This document shows, one piece after another, positions 829 through 44,459 of a stretch of DNA of 64,000 nt; position 1 is the first letter of the stretch; each line of letters begins with the position of its first letter. Source of the stretch: Eledone cirrhosa. Lineage: Eukaryota. The notes beneath the pieces were generated by a model. It saw only the letters and a program-made list of their open reading frames with translations, ran no database searches and was not told where the DNA came from. Position numbers and translations under genes: made by a program. The stretch lies in NCBI GenBank assembly GCA_964016885.1, contig OZ024755.1, forward strand, positions 4,340,001 through 4,404,000. The letters run 5' to 3'.

Positions 829-914
<86 letters not shown>

Positions 915-937
915 TTTTATTATGGCTAAATAATGAG

Positions 938-987
938 TCTTGTTACTCTGGAGTTTCGCCTACTTTTCACAGGGTCATCAGACAAGA
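938..987 (-). ncRNA. Type I hammerhead ribozyme motif (complete core)
   Basis: Minus strand reads UCUUGU-CUGAUGA-C.CCUG(UGAAAAG)UAGG.C-GAAA-CUC(CA)GAG-UA-ACAAGA. It has a 6-bp stem I, both conserved core boxes, stem II, a short stem III and a GUA cleavage triplet. Confidence 0.8.
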
Positions 988-1866
988 ATTCTACTTCTGT
1001 ATGGAGCACGAGCACTCTTCTCTCAGCCGTCAACTACACACGGATAAATAGAGATATATATACATATATCTGTGTACTGTATGTATATATATATCCGTGT
1101 AGTGTATATAAATATATATTCCAGCCAGCTGCGACCTAGTAGTCTGATTCCGATGAACTATTTATCCTACATAGCTGTACCTATATGAAATGTAAAGATG
1201 TGTGTACATCATATTTTTCTTTTCTTTTGTGACCAGGTTTACATAAGCCTGTGTGTGTGTGTGTTTGTGTATGTGTAAATATCTGTATGTGTGTGTATAT
1301 TTGTGTGTCAAAATAAAAGAGGTGTGAATATTATTACACAATAAGATGTGTAATAGATACTCGTTAACTTTTACAGTCAGCATGTGGATTGCTAAAAGAG
1401 AATACTGACTTGTATTATAACCAGAACTAAGATATGGAGCCATTCTACAAAGTACTAAGAAATGAGCAGGACGAAGTAACGGTATAAATAGTCAGAACTA
1501 CTATGGTTAAGAAAACATTCAACTTTTTCTTCATACTGATGATCTATTTTAAAATAAACAATAAAAGATTTTTTTCTTTTTTTTTTTCAAATTTAAACAG
1601 ATTATAATGAATAAGAAATAAACAAAGTGGGCAGTGGGGGGTTAGAATTACGAATATGTTAAGATGAAGTAACAATAGTCAATGTCAAAAACAGATACGT
1701 GAGAGTGTGTGACAGACATTCGTCTGCAATTTAACAATACTGACAAGAAGTTACAAACACAAGTTGAGAATGTGAAAGAAATGGAAAATACGGTAAATAA
1801 CACTCATACATTCTGCTTATCGACGTCTCAATAAATTTTCTGTTTCCAATATTCTCATACATACAC

Positions 1867-1900
<34 letters not shown>

Positions 1901-2159
1901 ATATGTGTATGTATATATGTGTGTGTATTCTATATATATATTATATTATATATATTTATGTGTGTAGTGAGAGATGTATTTTGATTTACGTGTGTAGTCG
2001 TGCAAGTGTTTCTTCTTTAAGTATGTAAGAAAGACAAAATAAAACAGAGCTGATATATACTCGGTTACGAGTGTACGCACGTGCTGGACCCACCTTTTTA
2101 TATCAAATGTATGCGAATAAAGTACCAACGGCTTTCTTTCCCCCAAGCTTCTCTCTCGT

Positions 2160-2280
2160 TTTAGTCATTATCTGCCATTTTGGAAGTGCTGCGGCGGCGC
2201 GGCGCCAGATTCTCTGTTACTCCCAGCGTGCACTCGGATGATAGACAAACCCAGTTGCGCATGCGTGGAATTCTTGCTAA
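2160..2280. promoter_or_regulatory. CpG-rich putative promoter with NRF1-like and YY1-like motifs
   Basis: Local GC/CpG patch (gcggcggcgcggcgcc), TGCGCATGCG at 2256-2265 and GCCATTTT at 2174-2181 in otherwise very AT-rich DNA. No downstream coding exon was identified. Confidence 0.4.
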
Positions 2281-4090: not shown

Positions 4091-5003
4091 GCTTGTTCTT
4101 TTGTGGTCATTCTTATAATAACTGACCAGTTCTTGATTTGGTGAAGAAATATGTCTTTAACACTGAGGGTAGAATATTACAGGAGATACGACTCCCAAAT
4201 AGTCAATATCCTTAGAAGTTGAAGTAGTTAATGTGATATTTTGAAGGATACAACACATCGCCATCACACGTGGTAATGGTGCGAGCGTGTTGGCTTCCCT
4301 CAAAGTGTTTAGTTAACCCCTAAGATGTGAGGTACGGCCGACTGTTGCATTTGATGGTAAACTGTACCCCCCCCACACACACACCTTTTTTGCCTTTATC
4401 ATTATTGTTCAATGAGTTATACAAATGCTATTTTCATAGTAAAATTTTATAAACAGAAAACAAATATGAGGACTTGACAACCACGTGATTTTGGGGTCTG
4501 TCCATAGATTAACTCATTAATGCCTTGTGGGTGGAAAGTGTCACTAGTGTAATTAGTTACTATGTAGCAGTATTCTATTGTGGCTCTCACCTGAGCTTGA
4601 ATAAGGTTAGTATATTGGTGTGGGGTGTAAGTGGAACCCTAGCAGCACAAAAATAAGAGTTGTTAAAAGTGTGTGGAGGGGGATGAACTTCTCAGAGTCA
4701 ACAGCCATCCATCCCAACTATGGATTAAATAACCTCACCAATCTACAATTGGCCAAGTGTAGTAAATATGGCTACACTCTTGACATGACTAAACACCAAA
4801 CAGAAAGCAGTGCAGTTCAACCAGGGAGGGGTTCCTCCGACAGGATTAGACTAGATATATATATATGAGTCTCAGGTACAGTCGAGGGTAACCACAGTAA
4901 GTAAGGTACTCAATACATTAGTAGAATGTAAATATCATGTTTAATATAGAAATCATCAGGAAAACTTTCTAGTCCATTAGAAACTATTTCTATATTAAAC
5001 ATG

Positions 5004-6442: not shown

Positions 6443-6707
6443 GTTTCTGAATTTGGCAACCTCTCCAAGACAATGTCACTGGACCGAGACCTTTGGCGGT
6501 ACTCAGTAATAGAGAAGACCCGCCTTACCTAAATACAAAGTAAAAACCTACTACAGTCAGTAAGCATCTCTATCAAACCCCCCCCCCCCCCCCCCCCGTC
6601 CCACCACCTCCACCCCATCCACACCGCCCCTTTCAACAGTTATGTTGGTCCCACAACATCCAGGCCGAAACAAATGAGATCGTGTAGGTGTCACGACAAA
6701 AAAACAC

Positions 6708-7835
6708 ACAGTCCACGCTGTAAATGTGGCCGTGTAGGCAACACGGTAAAAACCTCCCAGCCCCACACTGTAAATGTGGTTGGTGTTAGGAAGGGCATCC
6801 AGCTGTAGAAAACCCGCCAGACAGTCCACGCTGTAATGTGGCCGTGTAGGCAACACGGTAAAAACCTCCCAGCCCCACACTGTAAATGTGGTTGGTGTTA
6901 GGAAGGGCATCCAGCTGTAGAAAACCCGCCAGACAGTCCACGCTGTAATGTGGCCGTGTAGGCAACACGGTAAAAACCTCCCAGCTCCACACTGTAAATG
7001 TGGTTGGTGTTAGGAAGGGCATCCAGCTGTAGAAAACCCGCCAGACAGTCCACGCTGTAATGTGGCCGTGTAGGCAACACGGTAAAAACCTCCCAGCTCC
7101 ACACTGTAAATGTGGTTGGTGTTAGGAAGGGCATCCAGCTGTAGAAAACCCGCCAGACAGTCCACGCTGTAATGTGGCCGTGTAGGCAACACGGTAAAAA
7201 CCTCCCAGCTCCACACTGTAAATGTGGTTGGTGTTAGGAAGGGCATCCAGCTGTAGAAAACCCGCCAGACAGTCCACGCTGTAATGTGGCCGTGTAGGCA
7301 ACACGGTAAAAACCTCCCAGCCCCACACTGTAAATGTCGTTGGTGTTAGGAAGGGCATCCAACTGTAGAAAACCCGCCAGACAGTCCACGCTGTAATGTG
7401 GCCGTGTAGGCAACACGGTAAAAACCTCCCAGCTCCACACTGTAAATGTGGTTGGTGTTAGGAAGGGCATCCAGCTGTAGAAAACCCGCCAGACAGTCCA
7501 CGCTGTAATGTGGCCGTGTAGGCAACACGGTAAAAACCTCCCAGCTCCACACTGTAAATGTGGTTGGTGTTAGGAAGGGCATCCAGCTGTAGAAAACCCG
7601 CCAGACAGTCCACGCTGTAATGTGGCCGTGTAGGCAACACGGTAAAAACCTCCCAGCTCCACACTGTAAATGTGGTTGGTGTTAGGAAGGGCATCCAGCT
7701 GTAGAAAACCCGCCAGACAGTCCACGCTGTAATGTGGCCGTGTAGGCAACACGGTAAAAACCTCCCAGCCCCACACTGTAAATGTCGTTGGTGTTAGGAA
7801 GGGCATCCAACTGTAGAAAACCCGCCAGACAGTCC
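6708..7835 (+). repeat. 112-bp tandem array (about 10 units) amplified inside a (GAT)n-tailed SINE
   Basis: Unit starts ACAGTCCACG at 6708, 6821, 6933, 7045 and onward to 7717. The flanks match single-copy versions of the same element at about 39565-39825, 48380-48640 and 61160-61440. Confidence 0.95.
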
Positions 7836-7981
7836 TATGCGAGCAAGACAACCACTCTTGCCTCAAGTGGGAAAACCCCCGTCCAAACCCATGCAAGCGT
7901 GGAACACGGACGCTAAACCTGATGATGATGATGATGATGATGATGACCCTTCCAAAGTGTAACAATATATATATATGGAAA

Positions 7982-8170
7982 GAGGGCGGTGGATTGGTAG
8001 TATCGGTAGAGGGTCGGACGCCATGCTTTCCAGCATAGTTACGTCCCTTTACGATCTGAGTTCAAATCTCGCCGAGGTTGACTTTGCCTTTCATCCTTAC
8101 GGGGTCGATAAAATAAAGTACCAGTAATGCACTGGGTAATTGCTGGCCTTGTGCCTAAAGTAGAAACAAT
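7982..8170 (+). mobile_element. tRNA-derived SINE (Meta-domain-like core)
   Basis: GGCGGTGGATTGGTAG head, GAGTTCAAAT B-box, conserved core, AGAAACAAT tail; near identical to 36576-36756. Confidence 0.75.
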
Positions 8171-11020: not shown

Positions 11021-11097
11021 ACGAAGGAAATGTGGTAAGGAACCAGGTGGACCATAACGCACCAAAGTACTCAATACTTGAGGTAGTAGAGTGGGTA

Positions 11098-11219
11098 ATA
11101 GGAACCAGTATGACCCCGACAGCTGAGCTCAAGCCGTTTCGACGGCTAATTCTGGACGAGTCCAGAATTAGCCGTCGAAACGGCTTGAGCTCAGCTGTCG
11201 GGGTCTTACTGGTTCCTAT
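11098..11219. repeat. Near-perfect palindrome (59-bp arms, 4-nt loop) containing a hammerhead 3' half
   Basis: 11098-11156 is the reverse complement of 11161-11219 with one mismatch. It contains GAAA-CGGC(TTGAGCTCA)GCTG-TC-GGGGTC. Confidence 0.9.
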
Positions 11220-11297
11220 ATATATATATATATATTTGGTAATTCCAAAGGAAAAGCAAAGGAAAAACGAGTGCTCTATGTATAGAACAGAGCTATT

Positions 11298-11432
11298 TAA
11301 TTAGAAAGTGAACAACACAAAATATAACGACTCCATTACCAAAGGTTTCTGGATCACAGACGTATATTATTATCGTCTGTCATCCAGAAACCTTTGGTAA
11401 TAGAATAGTTATATTTTGTGTTGTTCACTTTC

Positions 11433-11438
<6 letters not shown>
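11298..11438. repeat. Palindrome (65-bp arms, 11-nt loop)
   Basis: Arms 11298-11362 and 11374-11438 with about 4 mismatches; a single-arm homolog lies at 29582-29668. Confidence 0.9.
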
Positions 11439-11471
<33 letters not shown>

Positions 11472-16000: not shown

Positions 16001-19000
16001 TTGAATGTAACCACTCAAAATACGCAAGCATGGAAAAACTGGCGTAAAAATGATGATGATTTCATATTTTAATTTAACCCTTTAGCATTTACATTACTCT
16101 GTATATACTATTGTATTTTTGTGGTTACGGTTTTATCTTACATAATTATTCACATAATATCGAATTTATGAGATTTTGATGTTATTTATTTTGAGAACAA
16201 TACTTTAACATCAGTATGAGTGGCCAGTTACAGCCAGTTTGAACCGAAAGAAGTGAGAGAATTCTGGCCGGATATGGCTGGTTTAAATGCTAAAGGGTTA
16301 AATTGGAAACTTTTAAAATGGGTAGTTTTATTTCATAAAACCAGAGCTGGTTTTGGCTGGGTTGGTAACTAAAGGGTTAAATCCTTTCATTTAGATTTGG
16401 AATTTTGATTTTCCTTGCATTTGTACCACTTGTAAAACACTTGGCAGTAATACTTGGTTATTGTCTATATTATTATCAGATATTTTCAATATTTTTGCTA
16501 TTATGATTATATATATTCATCCCTGTAAACTTGGATTAAATACATCTGTTTAGTCACATTCTGTATAATTCCATTGGTGTACAATGTTTACTTTAAACAG
16601 ATGAGCTTTGTTTACACAGCCTAGGTACTATTTAACTGTGGAAAGATTGTTTTATTAGGACAGATGTTATTTTATACATTTGGATCTACTAGCTGGGTTG
16701 TGCCAGTATGAAATACAGAGTGTATAAGTGTATAAAACCTGAGGGATAAGATCTGAAATTACTTTGAAGATGAGACACAGGTGTGGTGTTCTGTGGGTGA
16801 GAGCAGTCTGAGGTGATAGGTGAGGTAGAGCAATAATATATGAGGTATAACATGGACAACTGACCAATAATTACAAAGACATAGAAGACATCTTGTGCTA
16901 ACTAGACAATAAAGCCCAAAATTTCCAGTGTTTTTCTCTGGTTCTTGATAAATTAACCCTTTATTGTAAGTCAGTATTCTCTAGTAACTAGTTAATATTG
17001 GTGAGGAATGCTACAGTTTGTTGTCAGTATTCTCTGTAGGTGGTAGTTACCAACAGTAGTTAGTTAATATTGGTGAGGAATGGTACAGTTTGTTGTAAGT
17101 CAGTATTCTTTGTAGGTGGTAGTTACCAAAACTAACTAGTTAATAACAGTAAAATGGTAATTATTGTGCTGTCCCTCCAAAAGTTGTGACTTCATCTCTT
17201 CTCAGAGATTTATATGTATTTGTTTATTTATTTTCAGGAATGATAGTGAGAAAAGAAGAATTTGGTTCTATGAATCTGGCTTTCTTGCTGGTGTGTCTTT
17301 TCTAATCTATTTATTGGATCATACCCCTTATTTGCTGTGGCTTCTTACATTTTGCACCTTCCTTTTCACCCAATTGATTGGGCAGCTCCATTTACTTTAC
17401 TGGTGGAATCTTCTTAAAACAAGATGGGATGAACACTTACAACACCAGGAAAGTTTAGAAAGACTACAAAATAATTCTACCATTTCACCAATGCCTGCAG
17501 CACCTTCACCAGCTGTTACCAATCGAGGAGTTTCTGGAATTGCCCAACCTTATTCTGGCCATCAAATGGTACCACAACAACCTTCAGTAAGCAACTATGA
17601 TCATCTGCTCCCAAATACTTCTGCTGTCATTTCACAATATGGACACAAATCAGTCAACCTTTCTAGCCAACAAGCTGCCTATTTAGGACCTCACTACTCT
17701 GATAACCACTTTCTCCCTCAGCAAAAACATTTGCTCATTCACCCTAATCAGCCCTGTGGCAGTCCTCCTGTATACTTTCCTGAGAATGTAACTGTGTGTC
17801 CCAACACTATTACTCAAAATACTGTTGGAACACTCTGGCCTCAGAATATGAGACGCCGACCCCTACGACCTAGTGTCTTAAGAAGTGCTTCCCCATTTCC
17901 TCTTGTCTCCGCTTCTCAGCATGACACCAAAACTGTAAGGGAATTTTCATTTAAAGACAAGCTGCTCTCTTCCTTTGGTTTCACACCAAAAAATCCACCT
18001 GGTCTGGAAAATGATGGCCAAAACTTATGTTTTATGAATTGCATATTGCAGTGCTTAGCTAGAAGCCCACACTTGGTTAGTCAGCTGTTGAGAGTTAACA
18101 TAGAAAATATCCCAAATGTAAATAAGGAAGAAAAGCAGTTTCTTTCTGAATTTGTCAAAATCTTAAACAAATGCTCTGCTGAATCACAGACAAGAATGTC
18201 TGTAGTGGACACAGAGCCGTTAAAATTAGCCTCTCAAATGATGAAATGTAGTCTCCTGACTGAACATACTCAACAAGATGCTGCTGAATTTCTTATGTGG
18301 CTCCTAACAACAACTCATAACATCTTAAACAAAATTCATCTAAACAAAGGTGAGGAATGTTTCTGGCAAATTTATAGACATATATCTGCATCGCCATAAT
18401 TCTTTTTCTAACTGACTACTTTGTTTATACAGAGATATTGTGTGAACCTATTTGTTGAGCAGTAGTCATTGTTTTTGTAACTTATTGCCCTGTAACTGAA
18501 ATAATTCAATCATTGAAAATAATCTCTACATGTTCAATATAAAATATGTGAGAAATGTTTCACATTTATTACTATTATTTCACATTGAAATATTTATTTT
18601 CTTTCTAACAGTTAATTAATTAATCTCTACAGTATTTCATGTAGTTTTATTCCCAAATAGAGTATTTCAGATTATTTAACTGTTTCACTATATTTATTGA
18701 AATTGTTTGTTATTTATTTTGCTTGTGTGTGTTTCCTTGAATGTGCAACTTACTTAGACTTAGGAGCTCCCATGTCTTGAGACACATGAGGCAGCTAAAG
18801 TGCTCCCATGACCACGGCTAGTTCCATCTATCAATACATTGTTCCAACTTTACTTAGACTTATGAGCTCCCACATCTTGAGACACAGAGGCAGCTAAAGT
18901 TCTCCAATGACCACGGTCAGTTGCATCTATCAATACATTGTTCCTACTTTTGTTGACGGGTTTCAGGTCTCTGTCAATTGTTTGCTGCCAATTCATCTTG

Positions 19001-21995
19001 GGACGCTCTCATCACTTCTTTCCATGGAGGTACCAACAGAAGACCTGATTAGTATGTCTCTCACTTGGGAGTCGTATGACATGTCCCAACCAGCCAAGTC
19101 GACACTGGCACATATTTGACATGTATATTCTTTATTTAATATTTGACTTTAGCATTCCACATACAAATGTATTAGTTACTACTACACGGTAGGGAGAGAG
19201 GTCTAGTATCATTCATTAAGTTTTTCAATGTTTTAAATAGCATTTACTTTCGTAGTCTTGGAGGGTGAGGGACTAAAAACAACTGAAAGACAGATTAAAT
19301 GGAAAATAATTAAAGCTATCCTAATTAATTTACGTTTTGTCTGTGTCTGTAACAATAAACGGAGTTTTACAGAATCATCCACACAGGCAAGCTATAATAA
19401 AACTCAATATAAAATCACATGACAGCTGACAATTAGTCACATTCTTACTATTTATAAAAACAATTCAAATTTGACCCTGTTTTATTTTTTTAAATCATAC
19501 CTTTCTACATGTACTGAGATGACCTAATTAGTTTAAAGAATTCTCTATTGAGAGATGAGTAACAAATACAGAGGAATATAGAAGTGTATGTTGGTTTGCT
19601 GATATATGTAGACTAATGTTTAGAGTGGAGTTTCTTCTTCTGGGAATAAATATTATTAAGTGGTAGTAATGTGTCTAGGTGGAGGTGCATGGCTTAGTGG
19701 TAAAGGTGTTGGACTTACAATCATAATGTGGATTTGATTCCTGGACTGGGTTGGGTGTTGTGTTCTTGAGAAAAACACTTCATTTCACATTGCTCCAGTA
19801 TACTTGTCTGAAATTGAGTACCAGCAATAGCTGGAGATTTAACCCTGCGATGGACTGGCAACTTGTCCAGGGGAATGTCTTGTACTCTGTCGTTTCACAT
19901 CAAGGTAATTGAGATAAGTACCGGCCTGATGAACTTCTAGGCTTGAGGCAGACTTTAAACTTTTAAACTTTAATGTGTCAAGAATACAAATGTTTGAAGT
20001 TGAAGCTTTGCATCTGATTATAATCAAAGATATAAAATGACCCTGAAATAACAGATATAGTGAAATATTTAGGTTGAAGACTTGGCATGATTTAGCTAGG
20101 GTCACTTCCAGTAAGTTGGTGTAATCATAAAAATTTATTTTCTTCAGTTTATGGGGAAAACAAGATGAATTCCAAAGCTGCAAACCAGAATGATTTATAT
20201 AATGAATTATCTGTGGAAAATATACAAAAGTTAAAAGTTGCCTACAAAGAAAAGGTAAATGTCGTTTCAGTTTTTTTGGTAGTTTTGTAAATTGTTAGAC
20301 ATTTGGTGTGTAAAGATGCAACTCTTCCAGACTTAAAAGATGTAAAAAATTATATTAAAAAGTTGCTGTTGAGTAGTTAATAAAGCTGTTTCTGGTAAAA
20401 ACCTACCATTTTTAGTAATATTAAAAATATATTTCAAAATTTGCAAATAAAAAAAAAAATTATTTTACATAAAATACTCCTGTATTGAAAAAGATGATAG
20501 TTTTTTTTTACTATAATCCCTCTCAATGGCCTCACTAACCTGGTTAGAGCATTCTCAATAAAGTAAATATATCCACACTGTAAATATGGTTGATCTTTGG
20601 AAGGGCATCCAGTCATAGAAATCAAGCCCAAATCAGTCCAGTATGAGCAAGACATGGTCATCTGATCTGGCTTGGCTCACAACGAGACAATTCCTCTAAC
20701 CCATGCTAGTGTGGGAAAATGGCCGTTAAACAGTGATGATGATGATGTATATATTAATGTTTTGTTGGTGACACGTGATATAGTCTCGGTGTTTAACCTT
20801 TTAGCATTTAAACTGGTCCTATCCGGCCAGAATTCCTTCACCTCCTTCTTTTCAAACCGGTTGTAACCAGCCACTCATACTGAGGTTAAGGTATTGTTCA
20901 CAAAATAAATATGAAAATCTCATAGATTTGATATGTGAGGTAAAGCATCTACCGTGAAAATATAATAGTAAATATAGAGTAATGTAAATGGTAAAAGGTT
21001 AAACATTTTTTAAATTCTGTTTACATACGCTTTTTCTTTCTTTCTTTTTTTCGTTTTAGATTGACAAGCTGAACAGCTTTGATACAGAAGCTTATGCAGA
21101 GTTAGCACAGCATTTATCTGATTTAGATTGGTATGCTTACAAAAATGAGAATTCTTCTATCATAGATAATCTCTTCACTGGTCAGTTACTAGAAGCTTAT
21201 AATTGTAACCGCAAAGGACATCTAACTATACAACCACAGACTTTTGCTGTTTTACCAATTCCAATTGGGGAATCTATATCAGACTGCAGTATATATCTTG
21301 AAGATTGTTTCACCATTTTTAGTAGTGTAGAACAACTTTCTGGTCAAGTATGTTCTCGCTGTTCTAAAGGGAATTCTGTTCATTCAAGTCCTACTGTGAG
21401 CACCCCTCTATCATACATCCCTCCTTGTGTAAACATCCAGACACTTCCTGCATTTCATATGGGTGGTTCATTCATGTCTCCCATTGTCAGCAACAAATCA
21501 GACAACAGTTTTTCATCTCATAGTGTTCGGACTTCAACTCCACGTTTTTATGCAGGGACATGTGATGGAATGTTACAAGATAAACAGACTATTGATCGAC
21601 GCTGTCTTCTTCATCAACTTCCAGAATGCCTTATTATTCAGCTATTACGCTTTACCTTTGATTCAAAGACTAAAAATACTAAGAAGATAACAACTCCTGT
21701 TGACATTACACTTTCAGGTTTGGACTTGAAAGACATAGTCTTTAACTTAAAATCAAATAAGAGTAGCTGCAATACAGTAGATCCTACTCATAAATATAAT
21801 CTGTATGGTATGTGTGTTCATTTGAGTTCATGTGGCACAACTAGTGGTCACTATATTTGCTATTGTCTGGACAGTAATGGAAAGTGGTATAAATTTGATG
21901 ATGACACTGTATGTGATGTAGATATGCAATATGAGTTGTCAACTCGAACAATTAATGAGAATGCATATCTGTTATTTTATAAGAAAGCCAGGTGA
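12571..21995 (+). CDS. Ubiquitin carboxyl-terminal hydrolase (USP/peptidase C19) with N-terminal hydrophobic segment, about 755 aa
   Basis: Exons 12571-12683 (tentative first exon, phase-compatible), 17238-18349, 20148-20254 and 21060-21995 give one open frame. Motifs: Cys box GLENDGQNLCFMNCILQCL, QQDAAEFL, SIIDNLFTGQL, LPECLIIQLLRF, His box GHYICYC..WYKFDD and terminal AYLLFY. Confidence 0.9.
15344..15560 (+). mobile_element. piggyBac-like MITE (TTAA-CCCTTTAGCATTT termini)
   Basis: About 210-230 bp family with TIRs CCCTTTAGCATTTA flanked by TTAA; at least 11 copies in the window. Confidence 0.7.
16074..16301 (-). mobile_element. piggyBac-like MITE
   Basis: TTAACCCTTTAGCATTTA...TAAATGCTAAAGGGTTAA, opposite orientation to the 15344 copy. 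Confidence 0.8.
18746..19115 (-). mobile_element. RTE-clade LINE 3' fragment with duplicated ~100-bp 3' end
   Basis: Minus-strand decayed translation WLGHVIRLP...RPKMNWQQTIDRDL; TAAG-like tail; 18746-18845 is repeated at 18846-18944. Confidence 0.6.
19680..19960 (+). mobile_element. tRNA-derived SINE with CORE-like domain
   Basis: TGGCTTAGTGG A-box, TTTGATTCC B-box, CTTGAG..AAACACTTCATTTCACATTGCTCCAG core. Homologs lie at about 24485-24770(-), 27860, 33230, 47395-47540(-) and 49668-49930. Confidence 0.7.
20793..21002 (+). mobile_element. piggyBac-like MITE
   Basis: Same family as 16074-16301, TTAA at both ends. Confidence 0.7.
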
Positions 21996-26083: not shown

Positions 26084-31095
<5,012 letters not shown>

Positions 31096-42552: not shown

Positions 42553-43311
42553 CTTTGTGATGTGCGGCCGATTATCACACTTGGTGAATTTGTTCCTTTC
42601 TCTTGCTCTGATCGTATATTTTGGTGTGTTATATTTATGAGGTTCCTAGCAATAGTTAATTGTATTTATTAGATATGTTTATATTTTCATTTTGAAAGAA
42701 TTGGGAACAATTTGTAATGTTATTTATAGTCACTCTACTAATGTATTGAGTGCTTTACTTACTGAGGTTACCCCTGATTGAACCCGGGACTCATATCTGT
42801 GTGTGTGTTGTAACTAGAGAGTCCAGTGTTTGTTTATAGTTGTTAAGTTATCAGGTTTCCAATTAGAATGACTCATGTGTACGGTGCCCCTACCTAAGAA
42901 ACTCTACCCGGCTCCATGTGTTTGTGATAGCTATAGCAACCATATCGTCCTCTGTCTTCTTTTAATGACAATAAAATGAAAATATCTCGCTGGATACATT
43001 TCACCGCTCTCTCTATCTCTCTGACACACACGGCCGGATTTAAGGGGAGGGCAATTGTCCCGGGCCCCTACAGTAGAGGGAGCTGCAACAGCGATGACTT
43101 TAGTAATTTATTTGTGCCCACAGCTGGGCTTTTTAGTTTTAGGGTGGTTAGAATGTTTGAATTTAATACCTGTATGTATAACTTTTCAATTCCAATTAAT
43201 TGCACCAAGCTAACTTTGATATGTAAAATTAGGGGATTTGCTAAGTATTCTAATGTGCCCCGAGCCCTTCAGGGTCTAAACCCAACCCTGCTCTCTCACA
43301 CACACGATACA

Positions 43312-43342
<31 letters not shown>

Positions 43343-44349
43343 TATATATATATATATATAGTAATAATAATAAAAGCAGCGATTCTTTGCTTAAACTTTA
43401 ATCTGTTATTTTAATAAATATATATATATATATAAGTCTGTCTGTCTCTCTGTCTGTCACACTAACGCAGAAACCTAACCATTTTTAACTCTAAAGTTCA
43501 TGTATATATATATATACAAAGTGTTAAAACGATCAAATTTTAGTTTAGAACATTTATTTGCTGGCAATTGTTTCTTCCAGAGGGAAGTCTGGATTCATCG
43601 GAGCATAAGGAATGTCGAAACATGTAACTAAAATCCTAGTCATTTAGAACATTTAGGGTAGATAATTGTTATTAGTGTCAAAAGCATCATGTGGAGAGTC
43701 ACGAGTTAAAAAGATGTTCTGCTTGAAAGAACACAATTACAGGCAGCACTGGTTGGAAGTGTAATAGGTATAAGTAAAAATCACAAGCAAAAAAAAAAAC
43801 ACAGGCAAAAAAGTTATAAGCAAGGACAATTGGTGTACAATGCAGGAGTCAATACAGTCAATATATATATATATATATTTTAAAATCATTTTTGAAACTA
43901 ATGTTTCCATCTTTATATTTTATTATATTTGTTCTGTGTCCAACCTTTTCTCCCTAAAAATAATCTACCTTTTCTTCAGACCAAATATATATAAACACGT
44001 CGAGCTAATCCTGAAACTACATGGCGATTATATTATGAGGAGTGTTTGATTATTTCGACACCTCGCCATCCCCCGTAGTAATGTTGCCAGGGTGTTGGTT
44101 TGCCTTAAACGTTTCTGTTAAATTTTCTGGTGTGGTGTGATCGGTTGTCGCACTTGCTGGTGAAATGATGGTTGTTTTTGTTTCCTCTATTTTTTTTGTT
44201 GTGTTTATATTTTCATTCTGTAAAAATTATAAACAAGACGACTGTGAATAATAAAATATTGGTTTAATATATATATATATATATCGGGGGTAACCACAGT
44301 AAGTAAGGTACTCAATACAAAGCAGAGTATTAATATTTGATATAGAAAA

Positions 44350-44400
44350 GGCTTCTACAGGACTAGAACTGTTTCATTCGGGAGAAATCATCAGGAAGCC
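44350..44400 (-). ncRNA. Type I hammerhead ribozyme motif (complete core)
   Basis: GGCUUC-CUGAUGA-U.UUC(UCCC)GAA.U-GAAA-CAG(UUCUAGUC)CUG-UA-GAAGCC, with a perfect 6-bp stem I, 3-bp stems II and III, and a GUA triplet. Confidence 0.82.
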
Positions 44401-44459
44401 GACTGTCCAAGTAATATGGTATATATATATATATATATATTGTTAACTTAGTTGAGCAG

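What the first reader, a model, noticed from the sequence alone, without database searches (positions are those of the whole stretch)
938..987. Intact hammerhead with near-palindromic stem-loop III
All core nucleotides are present with a perfect 6-bp stem I. The stem III region ACUCCAGAGU is one substitution from a perfect palindrome, the arrangement that lets minimal hammerheads cleave as dimers. The first stem II pair is non-canonical (C.C), paralleling the U.U seen in the other two full motifs. It lies left of a putative promoter at about 2.2 kb, so it could be transcribed in sense if that promoter fires leftwards (inference).
Basis: partly seen in the sequence, partly recalled or inferred. 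Interest (0 to 1): 0.7.

Follow-up and report, generated by a model that had tools for sequence, protein, structure and literature searches.

The report
Hammerhead relic of Penelope-like retrotransposon
This self-cutting-RNA motif is real but is one of likely thousands of decayed short copies left by a known kind of jumping gene, and those copies pile up at the spot where the element's RNA likely starts, which suggests they were copied from RNA that the ribozyme had not cut; cutting itself is untested.

Summary
The motif is real: a type I hammerhead on the minus strand (938-987) with intact core, 6-bp stem I and C.C at 10.1/11.1. It is not a lone ribozyme. It is one arm of a 135-bp two-armed insertion in a TG/TA microsatellite. 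Walking upstream in sister copies leads collinearly to a decayed RT plus GIY-YIG reading frame with the CxCX5C linker of Hydra-clade Penelope-like elements. The C.C and the imperfect palindrome are the family majority, not features of this copy; published Hydra hammerheads show the same design (U.U in 14 of 26 rows). Copies decay neutrally, so an intact core (11 of 47) signals no selection. One addition: 89 of 92 arms read through the cleavage site, and 17 of the 20 that reach the ribozyme's first bases stop there, 30 nt after a TATA-like box; a second family shows the same spacing. The templates were therefore probably uncut RNAs starting at the hammerhead. A minus-strand egalitarian-like gene makes sense transcription as intron plausible; not shown. 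The scan found Hydra-clade hammerheads, two-armed insertions and the tail hairpin before on other DNA of this genome.

The parts
938..987 (-). Type I hammerhead motif: 6-bp stem I, C.C at 10.1/11.1, 4-bp stem II, stem III of 4 bp + 2-nt loop or 3 bp + 4-nt loop; predicted cut between 944 and 943
912..990 (-). Left arm of the insertion: from the inferred RNA start (+1 = 990) through the hammerhead to the family's 'short' 3' end
   Evidence: 93% to a sister copy over 990-915; 5' ends of 92 arms
987..1046 (+). Right arm: the 60-nt tail in opposite orientation, ending at the family's 'long' 3' end; overlaps the left arm by about 4 nt (microhomology, inferred)
   Evidence: 77% to the tail of a sister copy; 60 nt between the two ends; same layout in L002-L020
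988..1007 (+). Decayed copy of the bulged tail hairpin (4 bp, 2-nt bulge, 3 bp, loop) shared by several families
   Evidence: the intact form folds in a sister copy, not in the window copy
833..911 (.). (TG)n microsatellite flanking the left arm (target region)
1047..1120 (.). TA-rich flank of the right arm
2090..2270 (-). Candidate first exon and promoter of a minus-strand host gene (NRF1-type motif at 2257, donor-like site near 2093); would place the hammerhead in sense in intron 1. Inferred, no RNA evidence

Best explanation
This is a decayed, promoterless 135-bp two-armed insertion of the hammerhead-bearing end of a Penelope-like retrotransposon, likely of the Hydra clade, and it was likely written by the element's own reverse transcriptase from an uncut RNA that began at the hammerhead. 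Shown: family membership, collinear link to an RT plus GIY-YIG frame, two fixed 3' ends 60 nt apart, one of each in two-armed copies, read-through of the cleavage site, and a pile-up of 5' ends at the first bases of stem I. Inferred: the endonuclease cut both strands of a TA/TG repeat; each DNA end primed copying at one of two internal RNA sites; the left arm ran to the RNA's 5' end, a Pol II start 30 nt after a TATA-like box; the two cDNAs were joined by a few complementary bases. In the parent the ribozyme would cut off the first 47 nt, probably slowly and helped by dimer formation or protein. This copy is most likely a neutral passenger, possibly inside a host intron.
For: Family: 46 matches among 40 scored of 2281 candidates; 52 exact matches to a 35-nt core pattern and 197 to a 36-nt pattern 3' of the cut, controls 0. 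Parent: upstream walking reached a C-terminal RT-thumb, CxCX5C and GIY-YIG region in the same sense as the hammerhead. Of 20 loci picked by the ORF alone, 14 continue into the same 3' non-coding blocks UTR1 and 3 (L218, L219, L220) reach the hammerhead in sense 1.4-2.4 kb downstream. Motifs match the Hydra clade description. Ends: 50 of 89 insertions are two-armed and 47 of the 50 pair a long with a short end. 5' ends: 89 of 92 arms start upstream of +45; of 20 reaching +5, 17 stop at -1 to +4; P = 2.5e-8 at the mean stopping rate, 0.006 at the steepest neighbouring rate. TATTTATA lies at -30 and TTAGTT at +1 in long copies. Second family: TATAAATA at exactly -30; of 30 arms 11 run 88 nt or more upstream, 10 stop at -2 to +6, 1 stops in between, 8 stop at +9 or later. 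In vitro, a Poseidon element primes at two internal sites, uses uncut RNA and needs protein for hammerhead cleavage (PMC11167929).
Against: No cleavage, start-site or expression data. 17 of 20 ORF-selected loci do not reach a sense hammerhead within the fetched stretch. The stopping rate already rises towards the 5' end (35 of 55 stop at +6 to +15), so the wall is not sharp. Both families have AG at +1/+2 after a pyrimidine-rich run, which also fits a splice acceptor. A cap-derived extra G was looked for and not supported (1 of 4 arms that start at +1). Clade placement rests on motifs and BLAST, not a tree; DKT and RWK read only as variants in decayed copies. Pfam did not recognise any of 7 ORF pieces.
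Confidence: 0.8

Rival explanations
1. Same retrotransposon origin, but the 5' pile-up reflects a splice acceptor at stem I, or joining of the two arms through stem-I complementarity, not a transcription start.
For: AG at +1/+2 after a pyrimidine-rich tract in both families. In D. virilis Penelope the intron ends at the 5' end of helix I (PMC4209133). Many junctions at +2 join an inverted arm.
Against: No shared exon-1 sequence precedes the short arms. Single-armed copies stop there too (for example L300, L324, L262, L363). A TATA-like box sits at exactly -30 in both families.
Confidence: 0.25
2. A solo copy of a non-coding retrozyme that spreads through a small circular RNA.
For: Short, non-coding, hammerhead-bearing and very numerous; retrozymes are proposed to derive from Penelope ends (preprint 10.64898/2026.07.22.740005).
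Against: Upstream sequence leads to a coding frame. No head-to-tail array among 222 locus-strands with a hit; the only same-strand pair is one genomic place with copies 894 nt apart. A circular template would not stop at +1.
Confidence: 0.08
3. A host-co-opted intronic ribozyme that cuts the pre-mRNA of the neighbouring egalitarian-like gene, alone or as a dimer.
For: Core intact; probably in sense within intron 1. A decayed sister arm 3.7 kb further along the same strand keeps a substrate-like strand.
Against: Core positions change in 10.6% of cells against 4-10% for stems and loops, and 11 of 47 copies are intact anyway. This copy has lost a G-C pair in stem II and its tail hairpin. The hammerhead fold is not the predicted minimum. 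The first exon is only inferred.
Confidence: 0.05
4. A chance match to the hammerhead consensus.
For: No Rfam hit; folding z-score 0.0.
Against: 1 hit in 200 shuffled windows against 2 real; the motif is the majority sequence of a large family at the place where Penelope-like elements carry hammerheads.
Confidence: 0.01

Closest known systems
Hydra clade of C-terminal EN+ Penelope-like elements (Craig et al. 2021, PMC8557442; sections 11 and 12, passages, supplement parts 1, 2, 52, 53 read)
   Same: RT then GIY-YIG, CxCX5C linker, MGSFDGAE and LYRDD motifs, (TA)n targets, hammerhead near the 3' end. File S2 lists 26 Hydra rows: U.U at 10.1/11.1 in 14, U.C in 1 (my count), and 4-bp stem III with 1-3-nt loops, several with ACUC/GAGU arms. 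An octopus family, Hydra-1_Obim, is listed.
   Different: C.C occurs in none of the 26 rows. The hammerhead and 3' end differ from Hydra-1_Obim. The 3' non-coding region is long (1.4 kb or more), so the element is about 3.5-4 kb (inferred) against the usual <3 kb. The main text has no mention of TATA or hairpin.
Minimal hammerheads of metazoan Penelope-like elements (Cervera and de la Pena 2014, PMC4209133; parts 1-2 of 4 read)
   Same: Type I, in pLTRs, mostly found as single dispersed motifs, short stem III, proposed dimer cleavage, low in vitro activity.
   Different: Here no bulged base before a G10.1-C11.1 pair, stem II is 4 bp not 7-8, and loop 3 is not palindromic. They read single motifs as truncated elements; here 5' ends pile up at a fixed site.
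Axolotl HHR_Amex2 (Cervera and de la Pena 2020, PMC7229834; passages read)
   Same: Pyrimidine mismatch (U.U) at the base of helix II; cleaves 22% in 1 h as monomer and better as dimer.
   Different: U.U not C.C; lies in a tandem non-coding retrozyme with loop-loop contacts.
Poseidon element of Anolis (Frangieh et al. 2024, PMC11167929; parts 1-2 of 4 read)
   Same: Two internal RT start sites give the optional tail; uncut RNA is the main template; no RNA-seq reads end at the cut site.
   Different: Different clade; tail here is 60 nt; the hammerhead's AUG opens no frame here.
Adineta vaga Penelope pLTR (Arkhipova et al. 2013, PMC3846280; passages read)
   Same: Putative TATA box and initiator inside the pLTR, inverted pLTRs, optional tail, solo pLTRs.
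   Different: In the passages seen, solo pLTRs are ascribed to recombination or deletion, and the promoter is not related to a hammerhead or to copy ends.

Membership tests
Type I hammerhead ribozyme | Conserved core CUGANGA, GAAA, UH | tested here: met
Type I hammerhead ribozyme | Three helices around the core, stem I open | tested here: met
   6, 4 and 3-4 pairs; not the predicted minimum-energy fold
Type I hammerhead ribozyme | Canonical G10.1-C11.1 pair | tested here: not met
   C.C; 26 of 47 copies C.C and 12 C.T from CpG decay. U.U is a published active variant
Type I hammerhead ribozyme | Match to an Rfam hammerhead model | tested here: not met
   no hammerhead family among 96 matches at E<=5
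Type I hammerhead ribozyme | Site-specific self-cleavage | not testable with these tools
   needs in vitro transcription
Minimal PLE hammerhead (Cervera 2014 consensus) | Extra base after A9, G10.1-C11.1, long stem II, palindromic loop 3 | tested here: not met
Hydra-clade Penelope-like element | Single ORF with RT and C-terminal GIY-YIG | tested here: met
   collinear decayed pieces in L208, L210, L218 match database proteins P0001 and P0002 over both domains, best E 1e-44 to 4e-74
Hydra-clade Penelope-like element | CxCX5C linker | tested here: met
   CNCRDQTQC in L187 and L210; partly mutated in L208 and L218
Hydra-clade Penelope-like element | DKT and RWK motifs | tested here: inconclusive
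   read as NKT or NET (3 loci) and KWK (1 locus) in decayed copies
Hydra-clade Penelope-like element | No CCHH; CxxC and CxH near the end of the endonuclease | tested here: met
   by eye in L187, L208, L218
Hydra-clade Penelope-like element | Insertion into (TA)n | tested here: met
   flanks of copies; the window copy has TG on one side
Hydra-clade Penelope-like element | Canonical hammerhead near the 3' end, in sense | tested here: met
   3 of 20 ORF-selected loci, 4 more of the 10 loci reached from the hammerhead side
Hydra-clade Penelope-like element | Generally shorter than 3 kb | tested here: inconclusive
   a tendency, not a rule, in the paper; here about 3.5-4 kb inferred from pieces, no intact copy found
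Hydra-clade Penelope-like element | Placement in the clade by RT phylogeny | not tested
   no tree built; two other GIY-YIG ORFs of this genome (L226, L235) gave no tblastn hit at E<1e-3 on the five loci listed
Non-LTR retrozyme | Head-to-tail tandem of hammerhead units without coding parent | tested here: not met
Non-LTR retrozyme | Circular RNA in cells | not testable with these tools
   needs RNA

The most novel reading that the evidence does not exclude
In Hydra-clade elements transcription starts on the first base of the hammerhead's stem I, so the ribozyme is a 5'-end switch that removes the capped first 47 nt. The thousands of solo hammerheads are not random truncations or recombination products: they are complete cDNAs of the short stretch between the internal priming sites and the start of an uncut transcript. 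This would explain why animal genomes are strewn with solo hammerheads, give in vivo support for uncut RNA as the template, and add an active C.C variant at 10.1/11.1.
Probability: 0.5. Interest if true: 0.5.

Novelty: new member of a known kind. Interest (0 to 1): 0.3.

Why it matters
The locus itself is ordinary: one dead copy among many. The family is useful because its copy ends record how Penelope-like elements are copied. What the hammerhead does in these elements is an open question (PMC8557442 calls it unclear). If transcription starts at the ribozyme and copies come from uncut RNA, its job is not to free the template, and the question becomes testable with 5'-end mapping and a short cleavage assay.

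Tried and rejected
Rfam scan: no hammerhead. The 30 best GIY-YIG Pfam loci: none carries this family; they belong to other Penelope clades with other hammerheads. Pfam on 7 ORF pieces of the parent: nothing above cut-off. No intact parent found: relatives of the ORF end are at most about 84% identical over long matches, and the longest open frame seen is 301 aa. Cap-derived extra G at the 5' end: suggested by copies picked with the window query, not supported in the unbiased set. Covariation as proof of structure: not attempted, because copies decay neutrally from one master; the only subfamily difference seen is in loop 2 (30 against 5 of 47). Expression: no RNA holder listed. Three contig runs of one sample confirm 949-1260 without differences but may be the assembly's own sample, and show no empty site. 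The CpG patch 6 kb left of the window is a repeat-like stretch, not an obvious promoter. Literature: Lunse et al. 2017 on dimeric Penelope hammerheads is not held, so a C.C variant there cannot be excluded. Searches for C.C data and for a start site at the hammerhead found none. PMC5785214 was an unrelated paper. For PMC6765202 and PMC2377424 I saw passages only; the latter reports a TATA-less internal promoter in Drosophila Penelope, unlike this layout. Supplements of the bioRxiv preprint could not be seen.

Full report
Observation. The minus strand of 938-987 reads as a type I hammerhead. Stem I has six Watson-Crick pairs, the core is complete, and the predicted cut falls between 944 and 943. 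Positions 10.1 and 11.1 are both C. Stem II has four pairs and stem III four pairs with a 2-nt loop, or three pairs with a 4-nt loop. A full descriptor finds this motif and one more (44350-44400, U.U) in the window, against 1 hit in 200 shuffles. Rfam misses it, and the hammerhead fold is 3.5 kcal/mol above the predicted minimum.

It is a repeat. The window lies in a 3.0-Gb animal genome, probably a cephalopod (inferred). A search with 912-1080 had 2281 first-look candidates, of which 40 were scored and gave 46 matches. Exact patterns give 52 and 197 matches with controls at 0. At roughly 8% divergence that points to a few thousand arms (my estimate). Copies sit in (TA)n or (TG)n. The window copy is two arms joined back to back: the hammerhead arm (990-912, minus) and a 60-nt tail arm (987-1046, plus). 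In other copies the tail follows the hammerhead directly, which gives the natural order. The family has two 3' ends 60 nt apart. Of 89 insertions picked only by 36 nt downstream of the cut site, 50 are two-armed, and 47 of these pair one long with one short end. An optional tail and an inverted truncated copy are described for Penelope-like elements (PMC8557442), and two internal RT start sites explain the tail in vitro (PMC11167929).

The parent. A minority of copies extend upstream. Following them through a C-rich block and a long low-complexity region leads to a decayed RT thumb, a CxCX5C linker and a GIY-YIG domain in the same sense as the hammerhead. As an independent check I fetched 20 loci by the ORF end alone. 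Fourteen continue into the first 3' block, and three reach the hammerhead in sense 1.4-2.4 kb downstream; 17 do not within the stretch fetched. The pieces match database proteins P0001 and P0002 across RT and endonuclease and carry the motifs that define the Hydra clade. No tree was built. All copies seen are broken, so the family looks long inactive.

The two 'unusual' features are clade norms. Among 47 arms covering the core, 10.1/11.1 is C.C in 26 and C.T in 12, the latter from decay of the CpG formed by C11.1 and G12. The central CA of stem III is present in 45 of 47 at each position, so it is not a broken palindrome. In a dimer it leaves two mismatches (-7.2 against -13.8 kcal/mol). File S2 of PMC8557442 lists 26 Hydra hammerhead rows; by my count 14 have U.U, one U.C and none C.C, and 4-bp stem III with 1-3-nt loops is usual. 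A U.U variant cleaves in axolotl (PMC7229834). Other families in this genome show U.U and A.A. C.C is thus a small unlisted variant whose activity is untested. Lunse et al. 2017 was not available.

No sign of selection on this copy. Core positions differ from the majority in 10.6% of cells, against 4-10% for stems and loops; part of the core figure is an edge effect at C3. The CpG positions differ in 32-36%. Eleven of 47 arms keep an intact core. The window copy has turned one stem II pair into G.U and has lost its tail hairpin.

Where copies start. I measured 5' ends for 92 distinct arms chosen without using the hammerhead (the first 90 places of 197 matches, one duplicate dropped). With +1 as the first base of the extended stem I, the cut follows +47. 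Only 3 arms start at +45 to +48; 89 read through. Twenty reach +5, and 17 of them stop at -1 to +4. Three score further upstream, one of which (L320) looks spurious by eye. The chance of 17 of 20 is 2.5e-8 at the mean stopping rate and 0.006 at the steeper neighbouring rate. Long copies have TATTTATA at -30 and TTAGTT at +1, the spacing of a Pol II core promoter (established knowledge). The second family in the window repeats this with TATAAATA at exactly -30. Of its 30 arms (first 30 of 7132 matches), 11 run 88 nt or more upstream, 10 stop at -2 to +6, one stops in between, and 8 stop at +9 or later; 27 of 30 include the cut site. Published coral and sea-cucumber Hydra consensus sequences show TATA-like runs 26-33 nt before stem I by eye. 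A religated circle would also keep the cut site but would not stop at +1, so the simplest template is a linear, uncut RNA that starts at the hammerhead. Against this: the wall is soft, both families have AG at +1/+2 after pyrimidines as a splice acceptor would, many junctions involve the inverted arm, and no cap-derived G was seen. A putative TATA and initiator in a pLTR is published for a rotifer element (PMC3846280). I found no paper linking it to hammerhead position or copy ends.

How it most likely works. Shown: the parts, their order, the two 3' ends and the 5' pile-up. Inferred: the element's protein cut a TA/TG repeat, both DNA ends primed on the same kind of RNA at the two internal sites, one arm ran to the RNA start, and the arms were joined through about four complementary bases. 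The copy lacks the promoter, which lies upstream of +1. In the parent the ribozyme would remove the first 47 nt, probably slowly. A bulged hairpin lies about 6 nt past the short end and recurs in three families here and in two published consensus sequences with compensatory changes; earlier notes of this scan report it in detail.

Host context. An egalitarian-like coding exon lies on the minus strand about 11.4 kb to the left, with an acceptor-like site and its first methionine 33 codons into the open frame, so a non-coding first exon probably lies to its right. The best candidate is window 2090-2270. This has no RNA support here.

Verdict. Real motif, new family of a known kind, locus probably inert. 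Interest 0.3. The start-site reading has probability about 0.5 and would merit about 0.5.

Noticed in passing
window 44280-44420 (-); related pieces at 30505-30628, 4882-5002, 42732-42778: A second, younger hammerhead family with U.U at 10.1/11.1 and a 14-nt stem III insert; 7132 exact matches to a 35-nt tail pattern; long copies keep CCAAT and TATA boxes. Best material for start-site mapping. Its coding parent was not sought.
   Followed up: partly
window 988-1007, 11091, 44327, 30552, 42733, 4926: A bulged tail hairpin is shared by at least three families here and by Hydra-2_Amil and Hydra-2_Ajap, with compensatory changes.
   Followed up: partly
G000:C15:4337198-4337310 (L034:6198-6310): A second, decayed two-armed copy of the same family 3.7 kb left of the finding; its minus arm keeps the substrate-side strand but not the CUGAUGA.
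   Followed up: no
G000:C15:4327648-4329579 (L365:6648-8579, -): 644-aa frame with three Egalitarian winged-helix domains; further left a TMEM70/186/223-family frame (L367:5336-5986, -) and a cadherin tail exon (L370:1903-2190, +).
   Followed up: partly
window 17161-18399 and 21060-21995 (+): Exons of a ubiquitin carboxyl-terminal hydrolase gene; the region at 2.1-2.3 kb may be a bidirectional promoter shared with the egalitarian-like gene.
   Followed up: no
L225-L240: Other Penelope-like families with long open frames (1096, 938, 636 aa) and their own hammerhead variants: U3-A8 core, U.U, A.A at 10.1/11.1.
   Followed up: no
family positions 11.1 and G12 (window 958-957): The catalytic G12 sits in a CpG and is mutated in 17 of 47 copies, so methylation decay is the main route by which copies lose the core.
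   Followed up: yes
window about 6550-8060: GC-rich tandem array with a 112-nt period, seen as repeated frames.
   Followed up: no
window 11030-11440: Two adjacent fold-back repeats in TA runs, each with a tail hairpin.
   Followed up: no
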